Source: Perkinsus olseni (lineage: Eukaryota). From it: a DNA stretch of 34,997 bases. Of this stretch, positions 3,376 to 32,947 are shown piece after piece. Below the pieces are notes generated by a model. The model was given only the letters and a program-made list of their open reading frames with translations. It had not been told where the DNA came from and did not search any database. A program made the translations under genes and the position numbers. Each line of letters starts with the position of its first letter. The first letter of the stretch is position 1. The stretch covers positions 1 to 34,997 of the forward strand of contig JABANN010000364.1 in the NCBI GenBank assembly GCA_013115125.1, read 5' to 3'.

Positions 3376-6300
3376 ATGGCTCGCTACATGTATGGGGGTG
3401 GTGATCGAGGGGGAGTATACGGCGCTGAGGGAAGCGGCACTCCGCCCTCTGCTGCCGACGGCGGCGTGGCGGTCAGCATAATAGAGCAGCTGGAAGTGAA
3501 GCCAACCTTGGGTAAGTTCAATACGGTAGGGCCGTGGTTACACTGTCGAGGAGCTTGTAGGTCACCAGCCGTTGATCCCCCCGAAGACCGAGTTTGCGGG
3601 GAAGTACTCCGCCGTTCGACGCCTCGGCTATGGCACCTTCTCGGAGATCTACTTGGGTGCTGAGATAGGCGCGGGTACGGCAACCGAGCTCGTCCGTATC
3701 GTGCCAGCGTCAACCTTAGATTCCACAGTACCGCCAATCGCTCTGAAAGTAGAGAAACCTCTCCGGTGCGTACCGCGTGTGCTCACCTATGAGGCCAAGG
3801 TCATGCAGTGGCTGAAAAGGCACGACCCCAGTATAGCCATACCACAGGTCTGCTTGGCCCCCATCATTGCCTCTTCGCCAGGCGCTCTAGGCTTAGGTTT
3901 ATTTTCTTGGCACGGACATGGTTATTGTACCGTGGGGGCCTAGTTATCCCACAACGGTCGTCGCTATGCAACTGTGTCCAGGTAGGGTGGCGAAAGCAGC
4001 GTAGGAGGAGTATGGTCACTTCTCAGGAGAGTCCCTCTCGGTTGTGAGAAGGCGCATCGGCAAGTTCTCTCCCTTCAGCTTGGCGGCTTTGGGCCGGGGT
4101 ATGTTGGACACGCTCCATCGCATGCATAAGTAGGTTGACTTTATGCTACTTTTACGACTATAACCGATATCGACGTCACTGTGTCCTCCAGGCTGGGGTA
4201 TATCCATCGAGATGTGAAGCCTTCGAACTGGCTCGTTAGCTCGAGTACGGAGGGTGAGTAGTCGCGGCCAGAGACTCAGCTATTGGAAGCGCAGAATGAA
4301 CTTTACAGATTCGGCCGGCGGCCCGCCTCCAAAATTGGAGTGCCTGCTTATCGATTTTGGCCTGGCCAAGCGAGTGGATGCCACCCATCCCTCAGAGGAG
4401 GACCGAACCATCTACGCTGCAGACGACCAGCCTCCACGTGAGTGTCAGTGCTAGATGTGGTTGTGGACCCCTCAGTTGCCAGGTACCACACAAGCGCACT
4501 CATTCCGTGGCACCACTAACTACGTGTCACCAGGCGGTGGTCATCTCACCTACATCGATGACTATTGGAGCCTTGTCTTCGTGTAAGGGGATCGGTGCTT
4601 GTGTAGGGGCGGAAGAAGTCGCGAGCGTAGGTTCCTCGATTTGGCTCTGGGCGGCTTGCCTTGGAAGTCTCTGGAGCGTACTAGTAGTGACGAGATTGGC
4701 AGTTCCGGCGAGCCTTTGACGCAGCGGGAGAAGGTTGCTGAGGTAGTGGCTGTTCCGAAGGATAGAAGAACGAGGAAGAGATGTTGTTGTGAATTCAGAT
4801 AAAGCGGGACCTGGTACGATATGCTACCTACCGAGCCAAGGATTCCCCTGCTCTAGCGTGCTTCGGTAAGCCAACAGCTGCGGGCTCGGAAGATGGTACT
4901 AGTCGCGTTGGGATTTGAAGTCGGCTCTCACTCAGAGGAACCATATCGGTGTCTTATTCATGCTGAGTTATGTTACGTATTTTATGGTATTGTAATAAAT
5001 TGATCGTAGTAAATTCGATGTATTTTTCTATGAAGGTTGAAATGCAGAAGATCGTAGGCGTGGATTTCTCATCCTTCGCGGATAAGGTGAACTATTCATA
5101 GCCCCGTTATTGCCTTCGTAGTATTCAGCCAGGATGTTTTACTCTATTCAGCGGGCCCCCGAGTATCCTCATTGCCGCAGAAGTCCAGCCCGCCGGCTGA
5201 GGTCTTCGAATCCGTACCAACGGAGCTCCTCGAGCTGGTGAGATCACTCCTGCCCTCTGCCACAGCCGGCGTATCCTAAGCTCATCTTCAGGTTGCCTTG
5301 GTGGATGTCGCGTCGTCTCGCGTTGTGTCCATGGCGGGCTCGGGAGGGGAGGATGCTGCGGCCAAGGCAGCGGCCACGCTGATGGACGGTTTATACAAGA
5401 CCATGGATGGTGAGGGCTCCGGCCTTCCTGCCTCGCGAAGTTTATGTTGTCAGATATCCTCCTGCGGCTGCTGAATCGCCTGGGGAGGGGCACTACTACC
5501 GACCCTGTGGCGATTGCCGAGAGGGTGCATGGCGAGCTGATGGTGCAGAACCCTTTGGTAGGAGAGGAAGGAGTGTATGCTTGCGGTACTCCCACCTCGC
5601 AGGCCCCGCCACCGCCAGTACACCATTCTAGGAGATCCACAGCGAGTAACTCAGCCTCATCCATGGAAGACGGAAGTGACCGGTCCCGAGAGAGGGTAGG
5701 TTGGTCAGGTGTTCGGCAGCTGTCGGGAGTTTCAGTCTCGCTTCCCTCGGCAGTCCCACGGCCCACCACCGCCACTGACGAGCCCGAGCGACCTCACAGA
5801 TGACGTTACTCTGGTCCCTGCCGATACCATCATCAAGTGCCTAGGTAAGCGAAGGGAGACCGTAGTAGGGGGAGGCGATCGCTCCTGCTCAGCTGAGGAC
5901 TATCGAGCATCAGTGGACGGCCGCCTCGATCACGTCTTGGACCGAGTCATTACGACCGATCGGGTGCCTGGCGTGCTGCGGCGGCACGACGTGGAGATCG
6001 AGTTGACCGACAAGTAGGCGACTTCCCTTCCGGTGGTCCATCCACTGAGCAATCAGGTTATCGCGCGACAATGTCCGGCTAATGTGTGCATTGTTCCAAG
6101 CCCAAGATCTGAGTAATATCGGAAAGATGGAGCTCGAAGACCACGGCCAGTAGGACTCCGAGGCCGTTCTCGCGAGGCCTGCAGCATTGGTCAGGCCCCT
6201 CTGTCTGTGGTATCTCTTCCGAGGCTCGTGTCCGTTGGGGGAGTCCTGTCCGTTGAAGCACCCGCAGGCCTTGCAGTGGGGCACCGAGCCTGGCAAGCAA

Positions 6301-6782
6301 GCCAGTCGGCTGTGCGCAGACCAGATACTAACAGGTGGGCTCAGTCGGTGGGGGCGGGTGGAAGATACGAGGAATCTTAGGTCGATGCAGGGATCCGATG
6401 AGATGCACGAGAGTGCACAAACTCGGGGCAGAGGAAGTTGAAGATTATGTAAGAATCGTAGAGGGCTTGCGGTCGTCGAAGAGCATCTCCTCAGTTGATG
6501 ACGGGTCGGATACCTCGGAAAGAGGGGGCGAGTCTTCCAGAGCCGGTGCTGCGGCCGCCACCGCCGTTCTTCCCGCACATGCCTCCCAAGCGAAAACGTA
6601 AGGGTCGCTGCTGGTCACCGGGCAAGGCAGGCGTGCTGTGGTCAGGTAGCGGCTCCTATGCAGCATACCATCATCAACAGCAGCAACAGCAGCAGCAGCA
6701 GATGCAGGGGTATGGTGGTGCCCCCGGGATGGGTGGGCCGTGGGGGGGAGGGCCGCAGTACGGTCATAAAGGACGGAGCTGA
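3376..6782 (+). CDS. CK1/TTBK-like Ser/Thr protein kinase with C-terminal tandem CCCH zinc fingers and a Q/G/P-rich tail (multi-exon)
   Basis: Kinase motifs LGYGTFSEIY, IALKVEK, YIHRDVKPSNWL, LIDFGLAK, FRGTTNYVS (no APE, CK1-like), DDYWSL and GLPWK. Later exons encode two C-x8-C-x5-C-x3-H fingers and polyQ, ending at TGA 6782. The single-gene continuity across ~4870-5130 is inferred from plausible splice sites. Confidence 0.8.
6673..6701 (+). repeat. CAG/CAA repeat encoding polyQ (9 Gln) in the kinase C-terminal exon
   Basis: catcaacagcagcaacagcagcagcagcag, in frame with ORF 6495-6782. Confidence 0.85.
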
Positions 6783-6842
6783 TTTCACTGTCTCTGGTTG
6801 TTGAGCTAAGTATACGTTAATTGGTTCATACTAGATTCACCG

Positions 6843-8280
6843 ATGACTATTCTATCCACGCTCCAACCTAGGATACGCAGCATTGTCCCACTGCGCTCCT
6901 TATCACGACAACTGCCACTGCGGCGGTTTTACTCTGCAGTAAGCGAGGCGGGTGCCACAGCCGGGAACGGAGGACGAAGGGCAGCTGGCGGAGGCGGCGA
7001 GCTGCTGTTGGGAGTGTCGATGGGCAAGCTGTTCGTTGGGTAGGATTCCCTCCGCTTCGGACCTTTTACGAACGCCGCGGAGGCAGGTACGCCGTGCTTG
7101 ACTTCGATACGAAAGGCCCGGTTAAATTCGGGCTTATAGATGTGCGGGACTTCACGGATGTAGGTGGGCGCATTTCGAAGAAGGGCCCGAATGCCCAGAC
7201 TGGGACTCGCAGTCTGACAGTCTGAGTATCCTGAGTCTGTAACAGTGACTGGGCAGTCTAGTCCCTAGGTGCATCAGCGTGCCGATCAAGTGACTTCAGC
7301 TCTGCGGGCTGTGAAGGAAGAGAGGGAGGCGGAAGTGAGAGTGGTGGATGCCCCTTCGTCAACCCTCAGTGGTGCCTGCCAGTTTGCCGCTGATCACCCG
7401 GAGGCAGCAGCAGCAGTGCAGTGGCATATAGGCTATCAAGAGCATCTGCATGGCTTCCCGCATAAGCCAGGGGCGACACAGCGGAAGTACTTGGATGGGT
7501 TGAAGCTCCACGGTAGGAGGGGGAGTCAGCCTAGCTGGGATTCGAGGTCCGGAAGTTTAGGTATCGTCCAACATGATTTACATAGAGTATTTAACCAGCC
7601 GGGGGTCGAACCTCCGCGGGTTAAGATATTCCCGGTTGCTAGTCGAGTGGCCCGACGGTTCATGGTGGGCATACCGAGCACACTGCACGAGGTGGTAACG
7701 GTAATTCCTTCAGGGTGTTGACAATGTCGGGCAGCCATCCAGACTTGAGCTACATAAGATGGCTGTGGAGGAGGTACCAGCATGGCTCCCCTGGCCTGCT
7801 TCAAGATCTCTACCCCCTCCTCGCTGTAGATTCCGGACTTCCCGTCCCTGTACCACCAGAACGGTCAGCTGAATGAGTGCGTGTACTACATGTCGGATGC
7901 TTGGGCAGTGGCAGCCTACACCAAGCAGCTTGTACAGGTATCGCCGCTGCTGCTGATTACTGGTGTGACTGAGGTGGGCCCTCAGGCTGCGCGCTTCCAA
8001 GCTGACACTGCGGCGTTCGACCGTATGAAGGCTAGTGTGATGAAGAACAACAAGCACATCAAGGAGCTCATCGAGGCCAGGGACGCCGCCAAGACCAGGA
8101 GAATCGCCCGGGACCTTGACGACGTGGGCGCCCTGCCGCAGCACGCTTGCCTTGTACAGTGGTCCTCGGTAGGTCATAAACAGCCGAGTGGAGAAGCTGG
8201 CGACGGACATGTGGATGAAATCCCGACGGAAGGCGGAAAGGGCGGCCGAGAGATCGGAGGAAGTGGGCGCCAATTGGTGA
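6843..8280 (+). CDS. Putative mitochondrion-targeted protein with RuvC/RNase H-like fold (multi-exon)
   Basis: The N-terminus is Arg/Ser/Leu-rich and acid-free (MTILSTLQPRIRSIVPLRSLSRQLPLRRFYS). The spliced body contains LLLGVSMGKLFVG|YAVLD, WHIGYQE, KIFPVASRVARRFMVG and YYMSDAWAVA, in the same order as RuvC elements. The last exon is VINSRVEKLATDMWMKSRR...GANW with TGA at 8278-8280. Confidence 0.6.
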
Positions 8281-8402
8281 TCCGTTTCAGCGTGCGCATG
8301 TTTCCGCTTCTGGTGAGCGTGCTGGGTTTGTAGTCGTTAATTTGAATTCTTCAAAGAGTTTGCTGGTCGTCCTCTGCCCTCCCTGTTCTCCTAGCGTGGC
8401 CG

Positions 8403-11400
8403 ATGGATCAGCTCATACCGGTCATTAACAGACTGCAGGACCTCCTCTCAACAGTCGGGCTGCATGTGACGCTCGACCTACCACAGCTGGCTGTGGTGGG
8501 CTGCCAGAGTGTCGGCAAGACCAGTGTAGGGCTACACCCTTGCCGTGTGGGCAGCATCAGATGGGCAGGTCCTTGAGGCCCTCGTTGGAAGGGACTTCCT
8601 CCCACGAGGCACTGGTATCGTGACTCGAAGGCCCCTCATCTTACAGTTGCGCAACACGACCAAGGACCAAGTTGTTGGTCCTACTATCAAGGCGGGTACG
8701 GTAGAATAAGGTGCTCCCTCGTCTTGATCTCTCCTGTGGCCGTAGGCAGCGGCGGCGGTGGCGACAAGACTGCTAAGGAGTGGGGGGAGTTCAGTCACTG
8801 TCCGAATAAGAAGTGAGTGTCGACTGGAATGGTGGTGCACGCGGATAAGGCGGGTCGGGCTTTTCCCTGATCATCCATGGGGACCCCCCGTCCCTGCCCT
8901 CCTTCGACGATGGACTCATGATCCCGTAGTTGGCACGAACTCCAGGGTCGTAGTTGCAGGAGCGCGGGGTCAGGTTCTCGGACTTCGCTGAGATCCGCCG
9001 GGAGATACAGGAGGACACGGAACGCTTGTGTGGAGCGTCCAAGGGGGTCAGCCCTGAACCCATCTGCTTGAAGATCTTCTCGCCTTACGTGATTGGTGAG
9101 TGCGGTCCAACCTTATCCGTGTTGAACCATGGTCGACCTTAGATTTGACCCTGATCGATCTGCCTGGAATAACGAAAGTCCCGGTGGGAGATCAGCCCTT
9201 GGACGTCGAGGCTAGAATCAAGGACATGGTCCTGTCCTACATTTCCAAGCCCAACTGCATCATCCTGGCTGGTGGGAAGATGCTCCTCTTCCGCTGCGTG
9301 AAGTGCCGCTCCCTCAGTGACGGCTGCGAACACTGACTTGGCCAATAGCGACTCTCTGCAGCTAGCTCGGCAGGTGAGGGAGGGGCGACCGGGGAAGGTA
9401 AGCACCCCCCTGCTCAAGGTGGACCCCTCCGGCGACCGAACCATGGGAGTCATCACCAAGATGGACTGCATGGACGAGGGCACCGACGCACTTGACATGA
9501 TCAACGGCAAGGTCATTAGAGCGGCCTTAGGCGGGCCTTTGTCTTCTCCCTCCTGCCCCGTGGCCTCCGTGTGATGGAGCTGTTTCCCCTCAGGTGTATC
9601 CACTGCGGCAGGGTTACGTTGGTGTGGTATGCCGCTCCCAGAAGGATATACAAAGCGGCGTCACCATTCGAGAGAGCATCAAAAACGAGGAGGCCTTCTT
9701 CAAAAAGCACGAGGCTTACCGGTGGGTCCTCGCGACCTCTCGTCAACCTCATCAGGGTTCATCCCTACGTCTTTGTGAAGAGAATGATGAGGGTCACTTG
9801 CTTCCGGAGAGGCTCTCTCGCCGAGTCCGATCTGATTACACGCTGTCGGCTCCCTCAGGCACATAGCAGCCCATTGCGGTACAGCCTACATGGCTCGGCA
9901 GCTCCATCGTATCCTCATGACCCACATTAGAGAGGCCCTCCCAGGGCTGAGGGATCGAGTAGATCAGCTACGTCTGGCGGCGGTGGGGAGAGGCCTTCTG
10001 ATAGGTCAATGCCATGCTACACGAACATGAGCAGGAGATGGCTGACTATGGCAATGATCTGAGCGGCGGAATGCTAGACCATACGCAAGTATCCAGAGCT
10101 TCTGGGAGCTCCTCGCGCGCGAGGGTTCATCGCGTTGTTACCCTTTGCTGCAATCAGGCCGGTAACGTCTTGCTGCAGCTGTTCACGAGGTTCTCTCGCT
10201 GTTTTGCGGACTGCATTGAAGGCCGCAACAACTCCAACCGTCATGACATCATCGACGGTGCTCCCCTTTCGGCCATCGTGGTGAGCTGCTGCTCGGACCC
10301 CCTCCTCCTCGGAGCCATAACACCTCTCAGGGAGGCGCGAGGATCCACTACATCTTCTTCGACGTCTTCGGAGCTGCAGTGAACCAGTTCGACCCGTTCG
10401 ATGGTCTCACTGACCATGACATCAGGACCAGCATACGCAACGCCAATGGTCCCAAGAGCCCTCTTTTCGTCCCGGAGGTGCAACAATCCGTGCATTCCCA
10501 GCCTTGTAGTGTACCCTACGTCAGGCAGCATTTGAGACCCTTGTGAAGGGGCAAATTAACAAGTTGCTGTCGCCCTCTTTGCAGTGTGCTGAGCTCGTCC
10601 ATGCGGAGCTGACCAAGTGCCTCAGTGTCACCATTCGCTCCATCCCGGAGTTTCGGCGGTACGGCCAATCCCCTTCTGATGGAAAGCCCTTTGTGATGAG
10701 CGTTAGGTTCGACAAATTGCGGGCCCGAGTGTACGACGTGGTCCGCTCAGTTCTAGCCTCCTGCTTAGCACCAACCAAGGAGATGATACGTAACCTCATC
10801 AGGATCGAGACCGGCTACATCAATACCAATCACCCTGACTTCATCGGAGGCTCGAGGGCCATCAGTGCGTGTAAGCTGCAGCACTACTGGAAGTGGCGCG
10901 TACTGGCCTCGGGGCCTCTGGCTGTTTCTAAGTTCCTACAACGTTTTCTAGTGTCTTGCAACATCTGTGAGTCCAATGCTCTGCTCACCACCATTCAACG
11001 CGCAGCTGAATGGCCGAGCGTGTACAGAAGACGGTCGGCCATTCAGCTGTATTTGAATGCGCACGATGTGATTCTTGAAAGCATAAGGCCGACGACGGTC
11101 CTCTTCTTGAGGATGGTATCGTGCCTTATCGAGGCGTTGGCTTGGAGGGAGAGGGCGATGATGATGACGCTGTGAATTTATGCGAGGTTCCATGGCATAT
11201 TCCTCGGAGAGCCCTCGTTATGCGCTGGACGCCACAGCAGCAGCAGGATTCCATTTCTCCAAGGGGGATCCGCCCATGTCCGCGATGGACCCACCCCCAT
11301 CACTGTAAGGCCTCGGCATCATACACCACCACCTGGCCTTCCTACTAGGTCCGAGTGTGGTAGTACAGCTCCTGATGGATCACAGCCGCCAACGGTCGCC

Positions 11401-12382
11401 GACCCTCCCCCACTGGAAGGGGGCGCCACAGCCAGTCGGAGCGGCATCTTCGGCTTCTGGCGTGGTGAGCAGCCTCTCCCTGCCGACCTGATCGCTCTCC
11501 CTCAGGGAACAGCGCTTCCAATGGCGCCTCGGCGATCCGGCGTGATGACCATTCTCGTCATTCGGACTCGGAGGCGGCAGGCCCCTCCCCCATGTCCCCG
11601 AGGGTCAACGGTGGCGCGGGCTCAGCCATTTCTGGTAGTCCAGTGGCTGAGGAGTTGCCGTGAGTCGTCACCGCTCAGTCTCCGGCCTGGCCCCTACTAA
11701 TCCCCCTCAAGGGAGTGGCGGTCTGCTGTGGAGCCTAGGACCACTGAGGAGTGCAGCAGCAGCGACGCCCATGATGGGCGCTAGTGAGAGCAACGCCACC
11801 CTTGCCCGTGGAGGCGGACTGTGAATGCTCAGGGTTGGAGCGTGACAACAGCATTACTTCGCTCTCGGGAATCCGCCTGGCTGCACCGCCTCCAGTGGTG
11901 TCCGTGCACTCAAGTCAGCTGAGCGAGAAGGAGCGTATCGAGACCGATATCATCAAAAGTCTGATTGCGTCGTGAGTTAGGCGAGTATCCATGCTCAACA
12001 TCATGCTGACCCGCGAGGTACCTGAACATCGTGAAAAGATCCATCTCTGATCTCGTCCCCAAGGCCGTCATGTGTTTTATGGTCAATACCTTCGGAGCCG
12101 ATATGGTGAGGCTGCTGCTCCGATGCCGCCTCTGGGCCCTCGTCTGTTGCCCCCCAGGTGCTCCACCGAGAGCTGGTCACGCAACTGTACAAGGAAGACC
12201 TCTTCAGCGAGCTGCTCAATGAGGCGCCCGAGATCGCCCAAGGCCGGGCTCATTGTGCAGAGGCTATCCGGATACTGCGGCAGGCGGCGGAGGTGATCAG
12301 CCAAATAACCAACTTCAATATGAGCAATCCTTCAAGCGCTGTTGCCACCTCCCCTCGGGATCATCCTGGAGAGCCGTGCTGA
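8403..12382 (+). CDS. Dynamin-related GTPase (Dnm1/Vps1 class, apicomplexan DrpA-like; multi-exon)
   Basis: GTPase domain: [86 protein letters not shown]. Middle domain: [58 protein letters not shown]. No PH or PRD domain is evident. Confidence 0.95.
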
Positions 12383-12513
12383 GGCATGCAATGAAGTGAA
12401 GTCGCAATTACTCTATATTCACTTTAATTTTTGTGGTGGTGCTCTCATCATCTTCGACTCCCGCGTTCTGAATCGGCCTCGCGTGTGGCGTATCGTCCGG
12501 CAGCGTTTTGAAT

Positions 12514-14854
12514 ATGGTCTGGCTACTCCTCCCCCTCGAGGGCAGCTCCGATAGGTCGGTGTACTACCTCCCGCAGGGAGCTACGACCGTTGGCCGGACC
12601 TACTCGGACATACTGGTCACCAAGGGTAGGCCGACGTTGTTATTGCATCTGAGTATCAGGGTTCATCAGACAACACGGTATCGCGGAAACAGTGTGAGTT
12701 CGTGGTGGATGCTAAATCGCCGCAGTCGCGTCCGATGCTGCATTTAAAAGATCTCTCGAGGGTGAGTCGTTCGGCCTGCGTGGCCTACGGGAGATCCACA
12801 CGTCGTTCAGTACAATACGACCTATCGTAACGGTGATGACGTCAGCACGCCCGACAGAAGTGTGGTGCTTTCTAGTGGCGACTTCATCAAGATCGGCTCC
12901 GCGTCTGAAGGCTTCGAGTAAGCACCATGTACACCTCTCGGGCAATCTGCGAGCATTGTGAACAGCAACCAGCCCCATTGGGGCTGGAGTATCGGGAGTT
13001 GGGGCTGCCCCACCTCCCAGCACTCCTCGTAGTGCGATTCTCCCACCGTTAAAGTCCAACTCGACTCTGTCCCGAAAGATTCGCTCAGCGTTCAGTTTCT
13101 GCTCAGAGTTCTCGAGGTCCCATTGTTGGCATATTGTACTAGGCCGGGCGACGCAGGTGTGTGCGAGGAGGCGGGCCTACAGGTTGTGAATGGGCTGGAC
13201 AACGCCACCCACCTTCTCGTACCGGGCGAGGCGAACCCTTGCGATTCGCCGGTGAGTATCATCACGTCCCCAGCCAGCTTCGAGTATACGCTCGGCCAGG
13301 TACTCAGCGCTGTAGTCCTCGGTAAGCCCATTCTGTCCTCTACGGTCGCCGAGTTCCTCAAAAATGGTGGCAAGTGCCTCAACCTTACAACGGTCGTCGC
13401 CGAGATGGCTGCAAGTATTGGTACGGGGAAAGTTGGAGAGTAAGGCCAGAGTTCCATAGGGGAACAAACTCCCAGTGCCTCGCTCTCAGGTGCTTCCTGC
13501 GATGGCTCACTACCAGCTATCGTCCCGTAGTGTCGACTGCCAGCTGCTCTCCCGAGTGCGGTGAGCTCCTCAACCGGTAGGCGCACTGGATAACTCTGTA
13601 GCTGTGACGTTTTCTTGTGGTGAATTTCACCTCAATTCTTATTGATTGACGACAACTGACTTTCACAATTCGGCTGAGAGGAACCCTAGGAAATCCCGTA
13701 TGATGGCAGACGTGCTGACACCCTAGGGCCCGTACGATAGGCGCGCATACTTGCTCCCCTTCCAGGCGTCTCACGGTGCCACTCAGATACCTCTCCGCAG
13801 CTCGTCAAGGAACGAATCGACGGCAACTCTTCGCGGGTCTCAACTTTTTACTCCAGTCCGATGAATCGCGGAGACACCTTGAGCAGCCGTTGCGGCGGAC
13901 ATCGGCGTGTTTGACGGCGAGCCCCGACGCTGCAGTAAAGACAACAGTCTTCGTCGGCGGAGCGAAGGTATTTTCGGGGCGAGGAATAGAGGATATAAGA
14001 CGATGGATTCCTAGGTCACATTGTTCAGCCTTCCCCATCACATGTGGCCCAGCTGCTGCAGCACCGCAAGGCTTACTATGCGACCATTGAGCAAGTCGCC
14101 ATGGCCATCTTGAGTGACGAGGGAGCCGGTCAATTTGGTGTGCTCGGTAACATCACCTCCGTTTGATTAGACCCTATCGGGGGTTTTTGTCAGCTACAGC
14201 GGACGTCATCGAGGCTGAGCAAGAGCCCGGACGAGTTGAAAGCGGCCAGCTCAGATCCCGGGTGTCCCTGAGACCTCGGGGGAGGCCTGCGGATGATAGC
14301 TGTAGGAATGATATGCGCAATGCGAGCGATGCCTGGTCTATCTCAGCATATGAACACGCTGGTGGGGGCAGCCCGGGGGCGTGCTCGGAGACTGTGGAAG
14401 GACTCCAGACGCCGACGCCTCCTCCGAGGCAGAGAAGCTCGAGGCGGTCCCCCTATACTGATCTAATTAACAAATCTCCCGCCCTGTCCGGCAGTGGGGG
14501 ATGGCATCCCAAGCGGCCTCGGAAGAGCGACGAGTAGCTAGCCTCTGTCCGGTCAGTTTGCACAGCTTTTATGAGCAGGCCGACAGCTGGAGCACCGGAA
14601 GAGGGCTCTAGACCGATACCAGTGGTCGAATGCGCACAAAATGTCCCCACCGCAACTCATCGAGAATCAACCGCAGTAAGGAAGAACTCAGTTCTTGTGG
14701 CCTAGGGTGGCCCTAGTAGGTGCCCGCTGGTGGAGTCAACTTTAAAGCCTTCCACCATCGCCGTGGCTGCCGGCCTACAGGTGCTGTGCCAGTCCGAAAA
14801 GAACCCGTGCGGCTGGTGAGCTCCGGGAAGGGCTATGAGTTATACCAGCAGTAG
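12514..14854 (+). CDS. NBS1: Nibrin/NBS1-like protein (FHA + BRCT pair + Mre11-binding motif; multi-exon)
   Basis: FHA at the extreme N-terminus (TTVGR, DNTVSRKQC, LKDLSR, TYRNG, GDFIKIG). BRCT1 (ATHLLV, SAVVLGKPIL) is followed by RRQLFAGLNFL, typical of the start of NBS1 BRCT2. C-terminal VNFKAFHHR at ~14735-14761 matches the NFKxFxK Mre11-binding motif. The exact 3' end is uncertain. Confidence 0.78.
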
Positions 14855-14855
14855 T

Positions 14856-16661
14856 TTAGTTTGTTAGGTAACTTTCACACCGGACCTCGCTGACGGTTTT
14901 GGTGATGGCGACGATGATATGCGTCTGTTCGACGAAGTACCGCATTTGCGGCAACGCTATCTGACTCGGCGGAGATGAGTGGGTTAGAAGGCAGCTACCC
15001 ACAAATGCAGTATTTGTACCGTTTCTAATCGCCGTACGACTAATGTCGAGTAAACAAGTTGAAGTCAATTAAGAGATAGGAGTTAATGAGCACACCTTAG
15101 AGAGGGAAGCTTTCTCAAAGCACTTCCAAACAACTCTCGTTGACCTTCACGAGTCTCAGGGGAAATGTGGTACCGGGGCTCCGGAAGTGACTTGGGAAGT
15201 ACACGTGCTTGGAGGTAGAGTTAGAACCGGAGTCGTTGCCTCACGTTGCCCGTCCCCTATATTGTTTTTGACGCACAACTCGTGTAAGCGGTCTTCGGTT
15301 GTATATGGACATTGCTGTATATCTGCTTCATCGAGCCGCTGAGTCAAGATGATAGCCCAACCCTGTGGTCTACCTTGGGCAATGAACTGTACAGCACGAT
15401 AACTGGACCTTTGTTGCTTCAGTGTTTAGTCCGCAGGTCTCGAGAACGCAGCACTTTCATCACTCCCGCTAAGACCCGGTCACGAGGAACGAGCTGACTT
15501 CTTGCCGGCGTCAACTCAACTATGAGAGACCATTTCACCACAGTTAATGGGCCACAAGTAACGACAGCAACAACACCGATGGCATGCTGAAGGATACTCC
15601 ATCGCCGGTGCTGCTACTCTGTTCTCTTCACATGCCGAGAATTGCTTGACGGTACTTGGCGCAGAGGAGGAACATGAAGTTGATTCGTCTCTTGGCGCAT
15701 AGTTGTGATATCTTGGGCGAGCGATACTATTTTTCATATTTGATAGTCCTAATTGGTTGTCTAAGCTGAGTAACCATGCCTTAATTGAAGGACTAGTATC
15801 GCCATTATTGTAGTTGGACTTTTTAACACACTTCACTTCGTTCCAAGTGGCATTGAGTTTTCAGAAGGAACATGAAGAGGCCAACGTTATCATCGGTCAA
15901 CGCTGCGTCCAGAGAGCCGCTGACAAACTCGAAAACTTCCTGGGCCGCAGCCCAACAACGATCAGCTGAGCTAAGAGTCAGCGCGTGAGCGCTGGTCTGA
16001 GAGAGTGAGTCCACGAGGCCGGTAGTGCTGGCTGCATCGCTGTTGTTGGTGATAGCTCCTTCCAGGACATGAAGACTGGAAGGAAAAGAGGTGGACTGGA
16101 AGTTCCACTGACGCGTTTCACGAATGAGCGAGGGTTCGGAGAAGTTGAAGGTGGACTGAGAAGCCTCGCTACTGTGCCTTTGAGGCACTGTCTCACAAAG
16201 TAAAATCATGTCGCTGTGATTTATCATCGATGCATTTGAGAGTATCGGTGTACACGAGGTGATTGTGAATATGAAAACGCCAGTTGAAGCTCAATCCGGA
16301 AATACGGCAATGCCGGCCGTCCAGCTGTGTAGCGCTGAAGGATCCCTGAGACGAGAGAAAAGATCATCCAGACCTGCGTCGACAGGAGGCTGAAGCTGAT
16401 GCACTATCTCAACCGTCGCCGTTCGTTGCCATTATCAATCGAGTATGGTAAACGATGTTGAAGTCCGGATGAAGCAGCTACCTTCGGTGAGACGTCGAGC
16501 CTGCCGTCTTCCCCGGCGCTATCTCGGTACTTTCGAGGTACATCATGAGAATCATCATTGTTATTTTGAATACGCCTTCCATGATCGTTAGCAGCGTTCA
16601 TTGCCGAGGCAACAAATATCGTAGAAACCCAGATGAGAAGTAGCTTGCCAAAGGATGTCAA
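14856..16661 (-). pseudogene. Lineage-specific secreted protein family copy S1, disrupted
   Basis: Signal-peptide-like FGKLLLIWVSTIFVASA, clearly homologous to the copies at 23905 and 25962. The ATG present in S3 is deleted here, and a 186-bp insertion interrupts the FMFLL|CAKYRQ exon. The 3' limit is approximate. Confidence 0.6.
15668..15877. mobile_element. 186-bp AT-rich insertion (15680-15865) flanked by a 12-bp target-site duplication AGGAACATGAAG
   Basis: Direct repeats at 15668-15679 and 15866-15877. The paralog S3 (~26772-26783) has a single copy of the 12-mer and no insert. Confidence 0.85.
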
Positions 16662-27045: not shown

Positions 27046-27245
27046 CCTGCGAGGTCCCCTCAGGGGACTCCCCTGTATAAGCGACACAGGCGATGAGAGG
27101 TCGAATGTCGAGACTCCGGTCAGCACGTTCCGTTATTCTCTCTAGAATCCGCTAAGAAGAGTTTATTGAGCGAGGAGGAGTCCTCGCTGCTCTGATCATG
27201 AATCTGGTGTTCATTCGCCGATATTTGTTGAGGGATATTGCAGCT

Positions 27246-27538
27246 GACTTCACAACTTGGAGTGGTCCAGGGGACTTCACAACTTGGAGTGGTCCAGGGG
27301 ACTTCACAACTTGGAGTGGTCCAGGGGACTTCACAACTTGGAGTGNNNNNNNNNNNNNNNNNNNNNNNNNNNNNNNNNNNNNNNNNNNNNNNNNNNNNNN
27401 NNNNNNNNNNNNNNNNNNNNNNNNNNNNNNNNNNNNNNNNNNNTGGTCCAGGGGACTTCACAACTTGGGAGTGGTCCAGGGGACTTCACAACTTGGGAGT
27501 GGTCCAGGGGACTTCACAACTTGGGAGTGGTCCAGGGG
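27246..27538. repeat. Tandem minisatellite GACTTCACAACTTGG(G)AGTGGTCCAGGG: 27-bp units left and 28-bp units right of an assembly gap (N run 27346-27443)
   Basis: Unit starts at 27246, 27273, 27300 and 27327 (period 27), then 27454, 27482 and 27510 (period 28). There are no unique spacers. Confidence 0.95.
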
Positions 27539-28137
27539 AATTCCGATTCTCAGAATCGATTCTGGAGCGCGATTTCACGTGAGAAGAACTTTTGTTAGAA
27601 TTACTTCCCAGAATCGATTATTAGTTTCATATTATTTTGTTGAACACGGGGCCTGTGACGAAGTTCGCGCCTTCCGCCCGCCATTGGAACCTTATGTAGC
27701 ACATCGAAGAGTGATGCAGCATCTCCTCACTAAACGCACATGGCTGAGCATGCTTACGTGAACGCTAGCCACGACTCCCGGAAATTTCGGTTGGAGTGGT
27801 ATGGCTCGGGACAACCCACACCTTGTGAATAACACAACGACTAGGAAATTAATCCATCTCAGAGAATTTCGAACAAGATGTTGGCGACTGCTGGAAGCTG
27901 ACTGACACACAGCGAATGACGTAAAAATATTAAAGCGACAAATGAGGCTTCGAGACTGAAAGCACCCCGACGGACAACGGATAGGACTGAAAGTAGAGCT
28001 AGAGTTGCTAGCAGGGATGAGAATATCTTTTAAATTCGCGCCTGGACAGACCAGATATTTTGAAGAAGAGCGACACGGAGAAGCCGCAGGATTTCCACCA
28101 AGTGACTGTTGAGCAGTGCTCCCAGTTCTTGCTCGAC

Positions 28138-29701
<1,564 letters not shown>

Positions 29702-31411: not shown

Positions 31412-32947
<1,536 letters not shown>

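What the first reader, a model, noticed from the sequence alone, without database searches (positions are those of the whole stretch)
6843..8280. Unannotated mitochondrial RuvC-fold protein with an apparently degenerate active site
Seen after splicing: a presequence-like N-terminus, then LLLGVSMGKLFVGYAVLD..PVKFGLI, WHIGYQE, SLGIVQ, KIFPVASRVARRFMVG and YMSDAWAVA. Known: the RuvC pattern is ILGIDPG..TGYGVI / FAIE / ARGV / VFEYAARQVKQTVVG / DAADALAIA. Order and spacing agree, but the first catalytic Asp is Ser (7017-7019), the beta4 Glu position reads Q-E, and only the last Asp (7896-7898) is clearly kept. Inference: a pseudo-resolvase repurposed for nucleic-acid binding, as yeast Mrs1 was derived from the Cce1 resolvase. 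It could act on the unusual myzozoan mitochondrial genome or its fragmented rRNAs.
Basis: partly seen in the sequence, partly recalled or inferred. Interest (0 to 1): 0.72.

Follow-up and report, generated by a model that had tools for sequence, protein, structure and literature searches.

The report
Dead RuvC resolvase for myzozoan mitochondria
An oyster parasite, along with dinoflagellates, chromerids and a relative of Toxoplasma, carries an overlooked gene for a DNA-junction-cutting enzyme that has lost its cutting residues and looks addressed to the mitochondrion, where it may help handle this group's very odd mitochondrial genome.

Summary
Confirmed and extended. The locus is a real, spliced nine-exon Perkinsus gene (6843-8280, 327 aa). 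Transcript contigs from 4 runs fix the exons. Public gene models bury it inside a fused "dynamin-like" protein and drop its N-terminus. AlphaFold2 gives a RuvC resolvase fold (pLDDT 92; Z 17.7 to phage bIL67 RuvC, 15-16 to bacterial RuvC and MOC1, about 12 to Ydc2 and TEFM) plus a conserved helical tail. Relatives occur in dinoflagellates, chromerids and Besnoitia. The active site is lost across the family: the first Asp is non-acidic in 20 of 21 members, and none of 23 keeps more than 2 of 4 catalytic acids, against 31 of 31 control RuvCs. The two junction-contacting basic positions are kept. N-termini look like mitochondrial presequences in 16 of 20 members. Best reading: a mitochondrial pseudo-resolvase that binds nucleic acid without cutting, like TEFM or Mrs1 but probably of separate origin. 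Location, binding and role are inferred, not shown. I found no description in the paper library searched.

The parts
6833..6834 (+). AG at which the transcript contigs begin; likely trans-splice acceptor 8 nt before the ATG
   Evidence: Contigs of 3 of 4 runs start at 6833. One has the loose letters TCA before the AG, which matches the 3' end of the Perkinsus spliced leader. Weak: 5 letters, one contig.
6843..7039 (+). Exon 1: presequence, Gly-rich linker, beta1-beta2 of the RuvC fold
6843..6932 (+). Predicted mitochondrial presequence, residues 1-30, ending in an R-3-type motif (R28-F-Y/S31)
   Evidence: No D/E and net +4 in the first 25 aa. 17 of 37 identical to P. chesapeaki in residues 1-51, against 178 of 199 in the core. 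Inferred.
7017..7019 (+). Ser59, at the position of the first catalytic Asp (E. coli RuvC D7)
   Evidence: register; S/A/C in 20 of 21 members
7087..7159 (+). Exon 2
7269..7334 (+). Exon 3
7383..7512 (+). Exon 4, with beta4
7437..7439 (+). Gln131, at the position of the catalytic Glu (E66)
   Evidence: D/E in 16 of 23 members, otherwise Q, K, R or L
7561..7664 (+). Exon 5, with Arg187 (7653-7655) at the RuvC K107 position
   Evidence: basic in 20 of 23 members
7714..7773 (+). Exon 6, with Arg200 (7741-7743) at the RuvC K118 position
   Evidence: Arg in 21 of 22 members
7830..7937 (+). Exon 7, last RuvC helix: Tyr230 (7887-7889) at D138 and Asp233 (7896-7898) at D141
   Evidence: D138 site acidic in 0 of 22 members, D141 site acidic in 21 of 22
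7986..8123 (+). Exon 8, start of the family-specific helical tail
8173..8280 (+). Exon 9, end of the helical tail and stop codon

Best explanation
A nucleus-encoded protein that is imported into the mitochondrial matrix and loses its presequence. It folds as a RuvC resolvase domain with an extra three-helix tail. It cannot hold the catalytic metals, so it grips nucleic acid in the old junction-binding cleft without cutting. Odds by layer: real spliced gene and RuvC fold, shown by transcript contigs and prediction (about 0.97); nuclease-dead, inferred from residues (about 0.85); mitochondrial, inferred (about 0.85); homodimer and nucleic-acid binding, inferred from the family. The single most likely job is TEFM-like: a clamp on mitochondrial DNA that keeps the phage-type mitochondrial RNA polymerase processive, with the tail as a protein-contact surface. 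The confidence given is for this last, specific step.
For: Fold: AlphaFold2 pLDDT 92.2; Z 17.7, rmsd 2.4 A over 152 residues to bIL67 RuvC. Dead site: first Asp acidic in 1 of 21, D138 site in 0 of 22, and no member above 2 of 4, against 31 of 31 RuvC controls. Loss of this Asp makes phage RuvC nuclease-deficient (PMC3864405, passages). Binding face kept: the K107 and K118 positions are basic in 20 of 23 and 21 of 22; K118 changes impair junction binding in E. coli RuvC (PMC3864405). Targeting: 16 of 20 N-termini pass a presequence composition test, against 118 of 881 mature-region windows; an R-3-type motif occurs in 14 of 20, against 48 of 375. Precedent: TEFM is a RuvC-fold mitochondrial protein without resolvase activity that clamps DNA for the polymerase (PMC3105396, PMC9950373, passages) and is itself among the fold hits (Z 12.8). 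The genome encodes a phage-type RNA polymerase. Only one copy of the gene was found. The family is kept in lineages whose mtDNA architectures differ widely (PMC9550989 passages), which favours a step common to all.
Against: No data here bear on a contact with the polymerase. TEFM's helix-hairpin-helix domain is absent, and TEFM and Ydc2 score 3-5 Z units below phage/bacterial RuvC and MOC1, so this would be convergence, not orthology. All 8 of the 27 hits that carry an organism name are myzozoan, which fits a myzozoan-specific task such as rRNA-fragment assembly at least as well. The registers for beta4, K107 and K118 rest on a weak profile alignment (probability 8%), not on a residue-level superposition. 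The RuvC core is not net basic (22 K/R against 24 D/E). 4 of 20 N-termini fail the presequence test.
Confidence: 0.3

Rival explanations
1. Mrs1-like RNA chaperone: a dead resolvase that clamps RNA helices together, here as a transient assembly or stability factor for the fragmented mitochondrial rRNAs.
For: Mrs1 is a RuvC-family protein that no longer cleaves DNA and binds RNA tetraloop-receptor motifs as a dimer (PMC2813881, passages). Fragmented rRNA is shared by all Myzozoa (PMC9550989), which is the range of all 8 named hits. Most dinoflagellate members have extra Arg residues right after beta1.
Against: No chain of the solved Toxoplasma mitoribosomes matches the family (control 92, 95, 96), so it is not a resolved stable subunit. 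The Toxoplasma orthologue itself was not retrieved. The range outside Myzozoa was tested only with a single-sequence search.
Confidence: 0.27
2. Non-cutting binder of Holliday junctions or forks in recombination-driven replication of mtDNA, which protects or organises branched DNA and so favours the rearranged genomes of the group.
For: Geometry is closest to working junction resolvases, and the junction-contacting basic residues are kept. Myzozoan mtDNA is described as prone to rampant recombination (PMC9550989).
Against: The RuvC F69 stacking position is not conserved as an aromatic residue (3 of 23). The family is present both in Perkinsus, whose mtDNA is simple, and in lineages with fragmented mtDNA.
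Confidence: 0.2
3. Still an active nuclease, with a rebuilt site made from the beta4 acidic pair, the last-helix Asp and a conserved acidic residue two turns before it.
For: The D141 site is acidic in 21 of 22, the residue after the beta4 site in 19 of 23, and the residue seven places before D141 in 21 of 22. The third catalytic position varies among active resolvases (PMC3864405).
Against: The beta1 Asp is lost in 20 of 21. Chromera has 0 of 4 canonical acids; Oxyrrhis has Lys and one unnamed member Arg at the beta4 site. The phage-type alternative position (four before D141) is also non-acidic in 22 of 22.
Confidence: 0.12
4. Not mitochondrial: a plastid (MOC1-like) or nuclear/cytosolic protein.
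For: MOC1, the chloroplast resolvase, ties with bacterial RuvC among the fold hits (Z 15.3). Targeting was judged by composition and motif only. The two P. marinus fragments were not found in the readable part of a mitochondrial complexome table (that file was cut, and the gene is annotated only in pieces).
Against: The Perkinsus and Vitrella N-termini are Arg-rich from the start with no evident signal peptide; the best 12-residue hydropathy is under 1.5 in 20 of 22 relatives. Secondary plastids need a signal peptide, and the Perkinsus plastid is thought to lack DNA (both recalled).
Confidence: 0.11

Closest known systems
RuvC Holliday-junction resolvases (phage bIL67 4ktw; E. coli 1hjr; D. 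radiodurans 7xhj)
   Same: Fold over almost the whole domain (Z 15.8-17.7, rmsd 2.4-2.6 A); order of motifs; basic residues at K107 and K118; last Asp.
   Different: Three of four catalytic acids are missing in Perkinsus; N-terminal presequence; a conserved tail of about 75 residues; only 10-14% identity; eukaryotic nuclear gene with introns.
TEFM (human mitochondrial transcription elongation factor)
   Same: Mitochondrial RuvC-fold pseudonuclease; fold hit at Z 12.8.
   Different: No helix-hairpin-helix domain here; a C-terminal tail instead; structurally more distant than RuvC; no sequence match.
Mrs1 / Cce1 / Ydc2 (fungal mitochondria)
   Same: Mrs1 is a non-cleaving mitochondrial resolvase derivative; Ydc2 is a fold hit at Z 11.9-12.3.
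   Different: No Ydc2-catalyt Pfam match in 28 of 28 aligned members. Mrs1 serves group I introns in a small set of yeasts; this family spans Myzozoa.
MOC1 (plant and algal organelle resolvase)
   Same: Eukaryotic organelle-targeted RuvC fold; Z 14.4-15.3.
   Different: MOC1 is an active resolvase; no sequence match to this family.

Membership tests
RuvC-like resolvases | RNase H-like RuvC fold | tested here: met
   the Besnoitia member's Atlas model also matches RuvC clusters
RuvC-like resolvases | Catalytic carboxylates D7, E66, D138, D141 | tested here: not met
   S59, Q131, Y230, D233 in the window; at most 2 of 4 in all 23 members; 4 of 4 in 31 of 31 controls
RuvC-like resolvases | Basic junction-contact residues K107 and K118 | tested here: met
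   basic in 20 of 23 and 21 of 22; register from a weak profile alignment
RuvC-like resolvases | Sequence match to the RuvC profile (PF02075 or NCBIfam) | tested here: not met
   0 of 28 in Pfam at E<=1; 1 of 28 in NCBIfam at E 0.034
RuvC-like resolvases | Homodimer | tested here: inconclusive
   the prediction job gave no verdict
RuvC-like resolvases | Cleaves Holliday junctions | not testable with these tools
   needs an assay
TEFM | Tandem helix-hairpin-helix domain before the RuvC fold | tested here: not met
   only 51 residues precede beta1, and no HhH Pfam hit in 28 members
TEFM | RuvC-fold pseudonuclease core | tested here: met
TEFM | Binds the mitochondrial RNA polymerase and raises processivity | not testable with these tools
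   a polymerase gene is present; the contact was not modelled
Ydc2/Cce1/Mrs1 (PF09159) | Match to the Ydc2-catalyt profile | tested here: not met
   0 of 28 members
Ydc2/Cce1/Mrs1 (PF09159) | Mitochondrial location | tested here: inconclusive
   presequence-like in 16 of 20; no direct localisation
Apicomplexan mitoribosome subunits | Chain resolved in the Toxoplasma mitoribosome structures | tested here: not met
   0 PDB sequence matches at E<=10 for the profile and E<=1 for the Besnoitia member; the control finds 9G6K and 9I05. The Toxoplasma orthologue itself was not retrieved.

The most novel reading that the evidence does not exclude
The myzozoan ancestor recruited a phage- or bacterial-type RuvC, lost its catalytic site and added a helical tail, independently of TEFM and Mrs1. 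The result is a lineage-wide, essential factor of mitochondrial gene expression, either the missing elongation factor or the chaperone that lets dozens of rRNA fragments assemble. Its loss of cutting may bear on why these mitochondrial genomes fragment and recombine so freely.
Probability: 0.35. Interest if true: 0.85.

Novelty: new variant of a known kind. Interest (0 to 1): 0.66.

Why it matters
How apicomplexans, dinoflagellates and perkinsids transcribe, recombine and assemble their reduced, fragmented mitochondrial genomes is largely open, and few of the protein factors are known. This gives a conserved candidate with a clear structural hypothesis that sequence searches and gene models miss. 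If it is confirmed, it is a probable further independent case, beside TEFM and Mrs1, of a resolvase turned into a non-cutting mitochondrial factor. It also corrects the public gene models at this locus.

Tried and rejected
Pfam on single exons: nothing meaningful. Pfam, PHROGs and NCBIfam on 28 aligned members: only scattered weak hits. Word-index homologue searches found only Perkinsus and Amoebophrya; the full scan found the family. Homodimer prediction: no verdict (score 0.27, mark 0.32), not used either way. Tail folded alone from a relative (pLDDT 93.6): best Z 7.0 to unrelated helical bundles and no Foldseek hit at E<=0.001. PF02075 and PF09159 found nothing in the own genome; this is uninformative, since PF02075 misses this very gene and the PF09159 control rang nowhere. 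Pairwise profile against single RuvC sequences: only beta1-beta3 aligned to E. coli RuvC, and nothing sensible to bIL67 RuvC. Tree of 22 members: only 3 of 19 inner branches are well supported, so it neither proves nor contradicts vertical descent. No run was on record as RNA; the four laid runs are treated as transcripts because their contigs skip GT..AG introns. The fused dynamin reading was rejected: in-frame stops at 6782 and 8280 and separate contigs of different depth. Literature: 10 full-text searches and identifier searches in the supplements of three papers found no description of the family. Some supplement files were cut or unreadable, and subscription papers are not covered. Three look-ups in earlier scan findings returned nothing.

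Full report
Gene. The region is a plus-strand gene of nine exons: 6843-7039, 7087-7159, 7269-7334, 7383-7512, 7561-7664, 7714-7773, 7830-7937, 7986-8123 and 8173-8280, giving 327 aa. Contigs of 4 public runs from 4 studies skip 7 of the 8 introns at GT..AG in the rows shown; 10 further joints were not printed. Intron 2 is inferred from length, since the spliced span 6833-8123 is 886 letters, as in contig record 7. None of the runs is on record as RNA; the spliced joints are the evidence. Contigs for this gene are separate from those of the upstream gene and the downstream dynamin, and 3 of 4 begin at 6833, an AG 8 nt before the only nearby ATG. Contigs cannot prove transcript ends, so this is a hint. 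The organism is Perkinsus: 260 of 264 aligned residues match a P. olseni protein and 263 of 313 a P. chesapeaki one. One copy was found in the genome with each of two exon queries.

The coordinates, Ser59, Gln131-Glu132 and Asp233 are correct. 'SLGIVQ' and 'RRFMVG' are partly intronic; the protein reads KLHGIVQ and RRFMG-VDNVG. The gene is mis-annotated rather than unannotated: residues 33-323 lie inside P0048, a 1,646-aa 'Dynamin-1-like protein' that enters at 6939 and so drops the presequence. P. marinus has only fragments of 71 and 124 aa.

Family. A full phmmer scan with the P. chesapeaki region gave 27 hits at E<=0.001. All 27 were looked up; 8 carry an organism name, directly or through a cluster twin, and all 8 are myzozoan: Gymnodinium, Polykrikos, Oxyrrhis, Amoebophrya, Vitrella, Chromera, Besnoitia and P. 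marinus. Toxoplasma and Plasmodium members were not retrieved. Besnoitia scored only 1e-4, so the edge of the family is not defined. Alignment A1 holds the query, 22 of the 27 hits and 5 cluster twins. I left out four fragments (P0003, P0022, P0026, P0029) and a 1,281-aa protein that matched only in short stretches (P0025). The residue counts below drop the 5 twins (23 rows). A tree of 22 rows groups the core dinoflagellate-like sequences but has only 3 of 19 inner branches well supported.

Fold. AlphaFold2 on A1 gave pLDDT 92.2 and pTM 0.87 for the P. chesapeaki orthologue, which is 178 of 199 identical to the window's protein in the core. Foldseek's top PDB hit is E. coli RuvC (E 7.4e-6). 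VIA-align gives Z 17.7 (rmsd 2.4 A, 152 residues) to phage bIL67 RuvC, 15.3-16.1 to bacterial RuvC, 14.4-15.3 to MOC1, up to 12.8 to TEFM and 11.9-12.3 to Ydc2. Viral models agree, and the Atlas model of the Besnoitia member also matches RuvC clusters. The match covers model residues 1-201. The remaining three helices are conserved in the family, fold confidently and match nothing specific. Pfam does not see the RuvC link in any of 28 members.

Active site. E. coli RuvC needs D7, E66, D138 and D141, and the D8N change makes phage RuvC nuclease-deficient (PMC3864405, passages). A profile alignment to 31 RuvC sequences spans 149 columns end to end but is weak (E 0.004, probability 8%). The beta1 and last-helix registers are plain; those of beta4, K107 and K118 are less sure. 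On it the window has Ser59, Gln131, Tyr230 and Asp233. Across the family the four sites are acidic in 1 of 21, 16 of 23, 0 of 22 and 21 of 22 rows, and no row has more than two; all 31 controls have all four. The phage-type alternative for the third site is non-acidic in 22 of 22. The K107 and K118 positions are basic in 20 of 23 and 21 of 22; K118 changes impair junction binding in RuvC (the K107 paper was seen only as a reference title). Against a clean story: other acidic residues near the site are conserved, F69 is not, and the core is not net basic.

Targeting. Of 20 members with an N-terminal extension of 20 or more residues (4 left out as too short), 16 have at most one acidic residue and a net charge of +2 or more in the first 25, against 118 of 881 windows from the mature regions. 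14 of 20 have an R-x-[FLY]-[SAG] motif, against 48 of 375. The extension diverges fast between Perkinsus species (17 of 37 identical). This is my own composition test, not a trained predictor, and the members are related. The P. marinus fragments were not found in a mitochondrial complexome supplement (PMC13623125: outline, legends and supplement searches). That table was cut when stored and was searched against fragmentary models, so this says little.

Mechanism. Shown: gene, family, predicted fold and residue pattern. Inferred: import, dimer, binding without cutting (jointly about 0.7). Two mitochondrial precedents exist. TEFM has no resolvase activity and clamps DNA for the RNA polymerase (PMC3105396, PMC9950373, passages). 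Mrs1 no longer cleaves DNA and binds structured RNA (PMC2813881, passages). The family is not a resolved subunit of the Toxoplasma mitoribosome: no PDB sequence match, while a control exon finds 9G6K and 9I05, the entries of PMC11652630 and PMC11742926 (passages and supplement searches). I rank a TEFM-like clamp at 0.30, an rRNA-fragment chaperone at 0.27, a junction binder at 0.20, an active nuclease at 0.12 and a non-mitochondrial role at 0.11. The top three are close, and nothing here separates them firmly.

Novelty. It works like TEFM or Mrs1 but fails their membership tests (no HhH domain, no PF09159 match), and it fails the RuvC catalytic test. Its closer fit to phage and bacterial RuvC and to MOC1 suggests a separate origin; this rests on Z-scores of a predicted model, not on a phylogeny. 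Ten full-text searches found no description (listings and abstract starts, except where passages are cited). PMC9550989, PMC3101222, PMC3417536 and PMC8064548 were seen as passages. The library lacks most subscription papers, and bioRxiv supplements are closed. Verdict: a real, apparently undescribed myzozoan pseudo-resolvase family, a new variant of a known kind, interest 0.66.

Noticed in passing
window 3388-14975: Public models join several genes here. P0048 fuses a protein kinase, the upstream gene, this gene and most of a dynamin. P0049 fuses the dynamin GED to an FHA-domain gene. P0040 joins all of them.
   Followed up: partly
window 6843-8403; P0002; P0046: Gene order is kept in P. chesapeaki (kinase, upstream gene, this gene, dynamin, all in P0002). 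In P. marinus a fragment of this gene (PMAR026123) is numbered next to a dynamin (PMAR026122).
   Followed up: partly
window 7132-7298: One run has a lower-depth contig (13 against 60-65) that runs unspliced through intron 2: a retained intron, pre-mRNA or DNA.
   Followed up: no
P0009, P0019, P0017: P0009 has Glu at the beta1 site and Arg at the beta4 site; Oxyrrhis has Lys at the beta4 site; Chromera has none of the four acids. A basic side chain may fill the old metal pocket.
   Followed up: no
window 6154-6782: The upstream gene has CCCH-type zinc-finger-like motifs and a Gln run (about 6666-6715); its stop lies 60 nt before this gene's ATG.
   Followed up: no
window 28146-28550 and 31838-32678, minus strand: Frames that resemble papain-family cysteine proteases (judged by eye); also a short tandem repeat with an assembly gap at about 27156-27761.
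   Followed up: no
G000:C2839:11575-12823: Phage-type (mitochondrial) RNA polymerase gene, Pfam PF00940 at E 6.7e-56.
   Followed up: no
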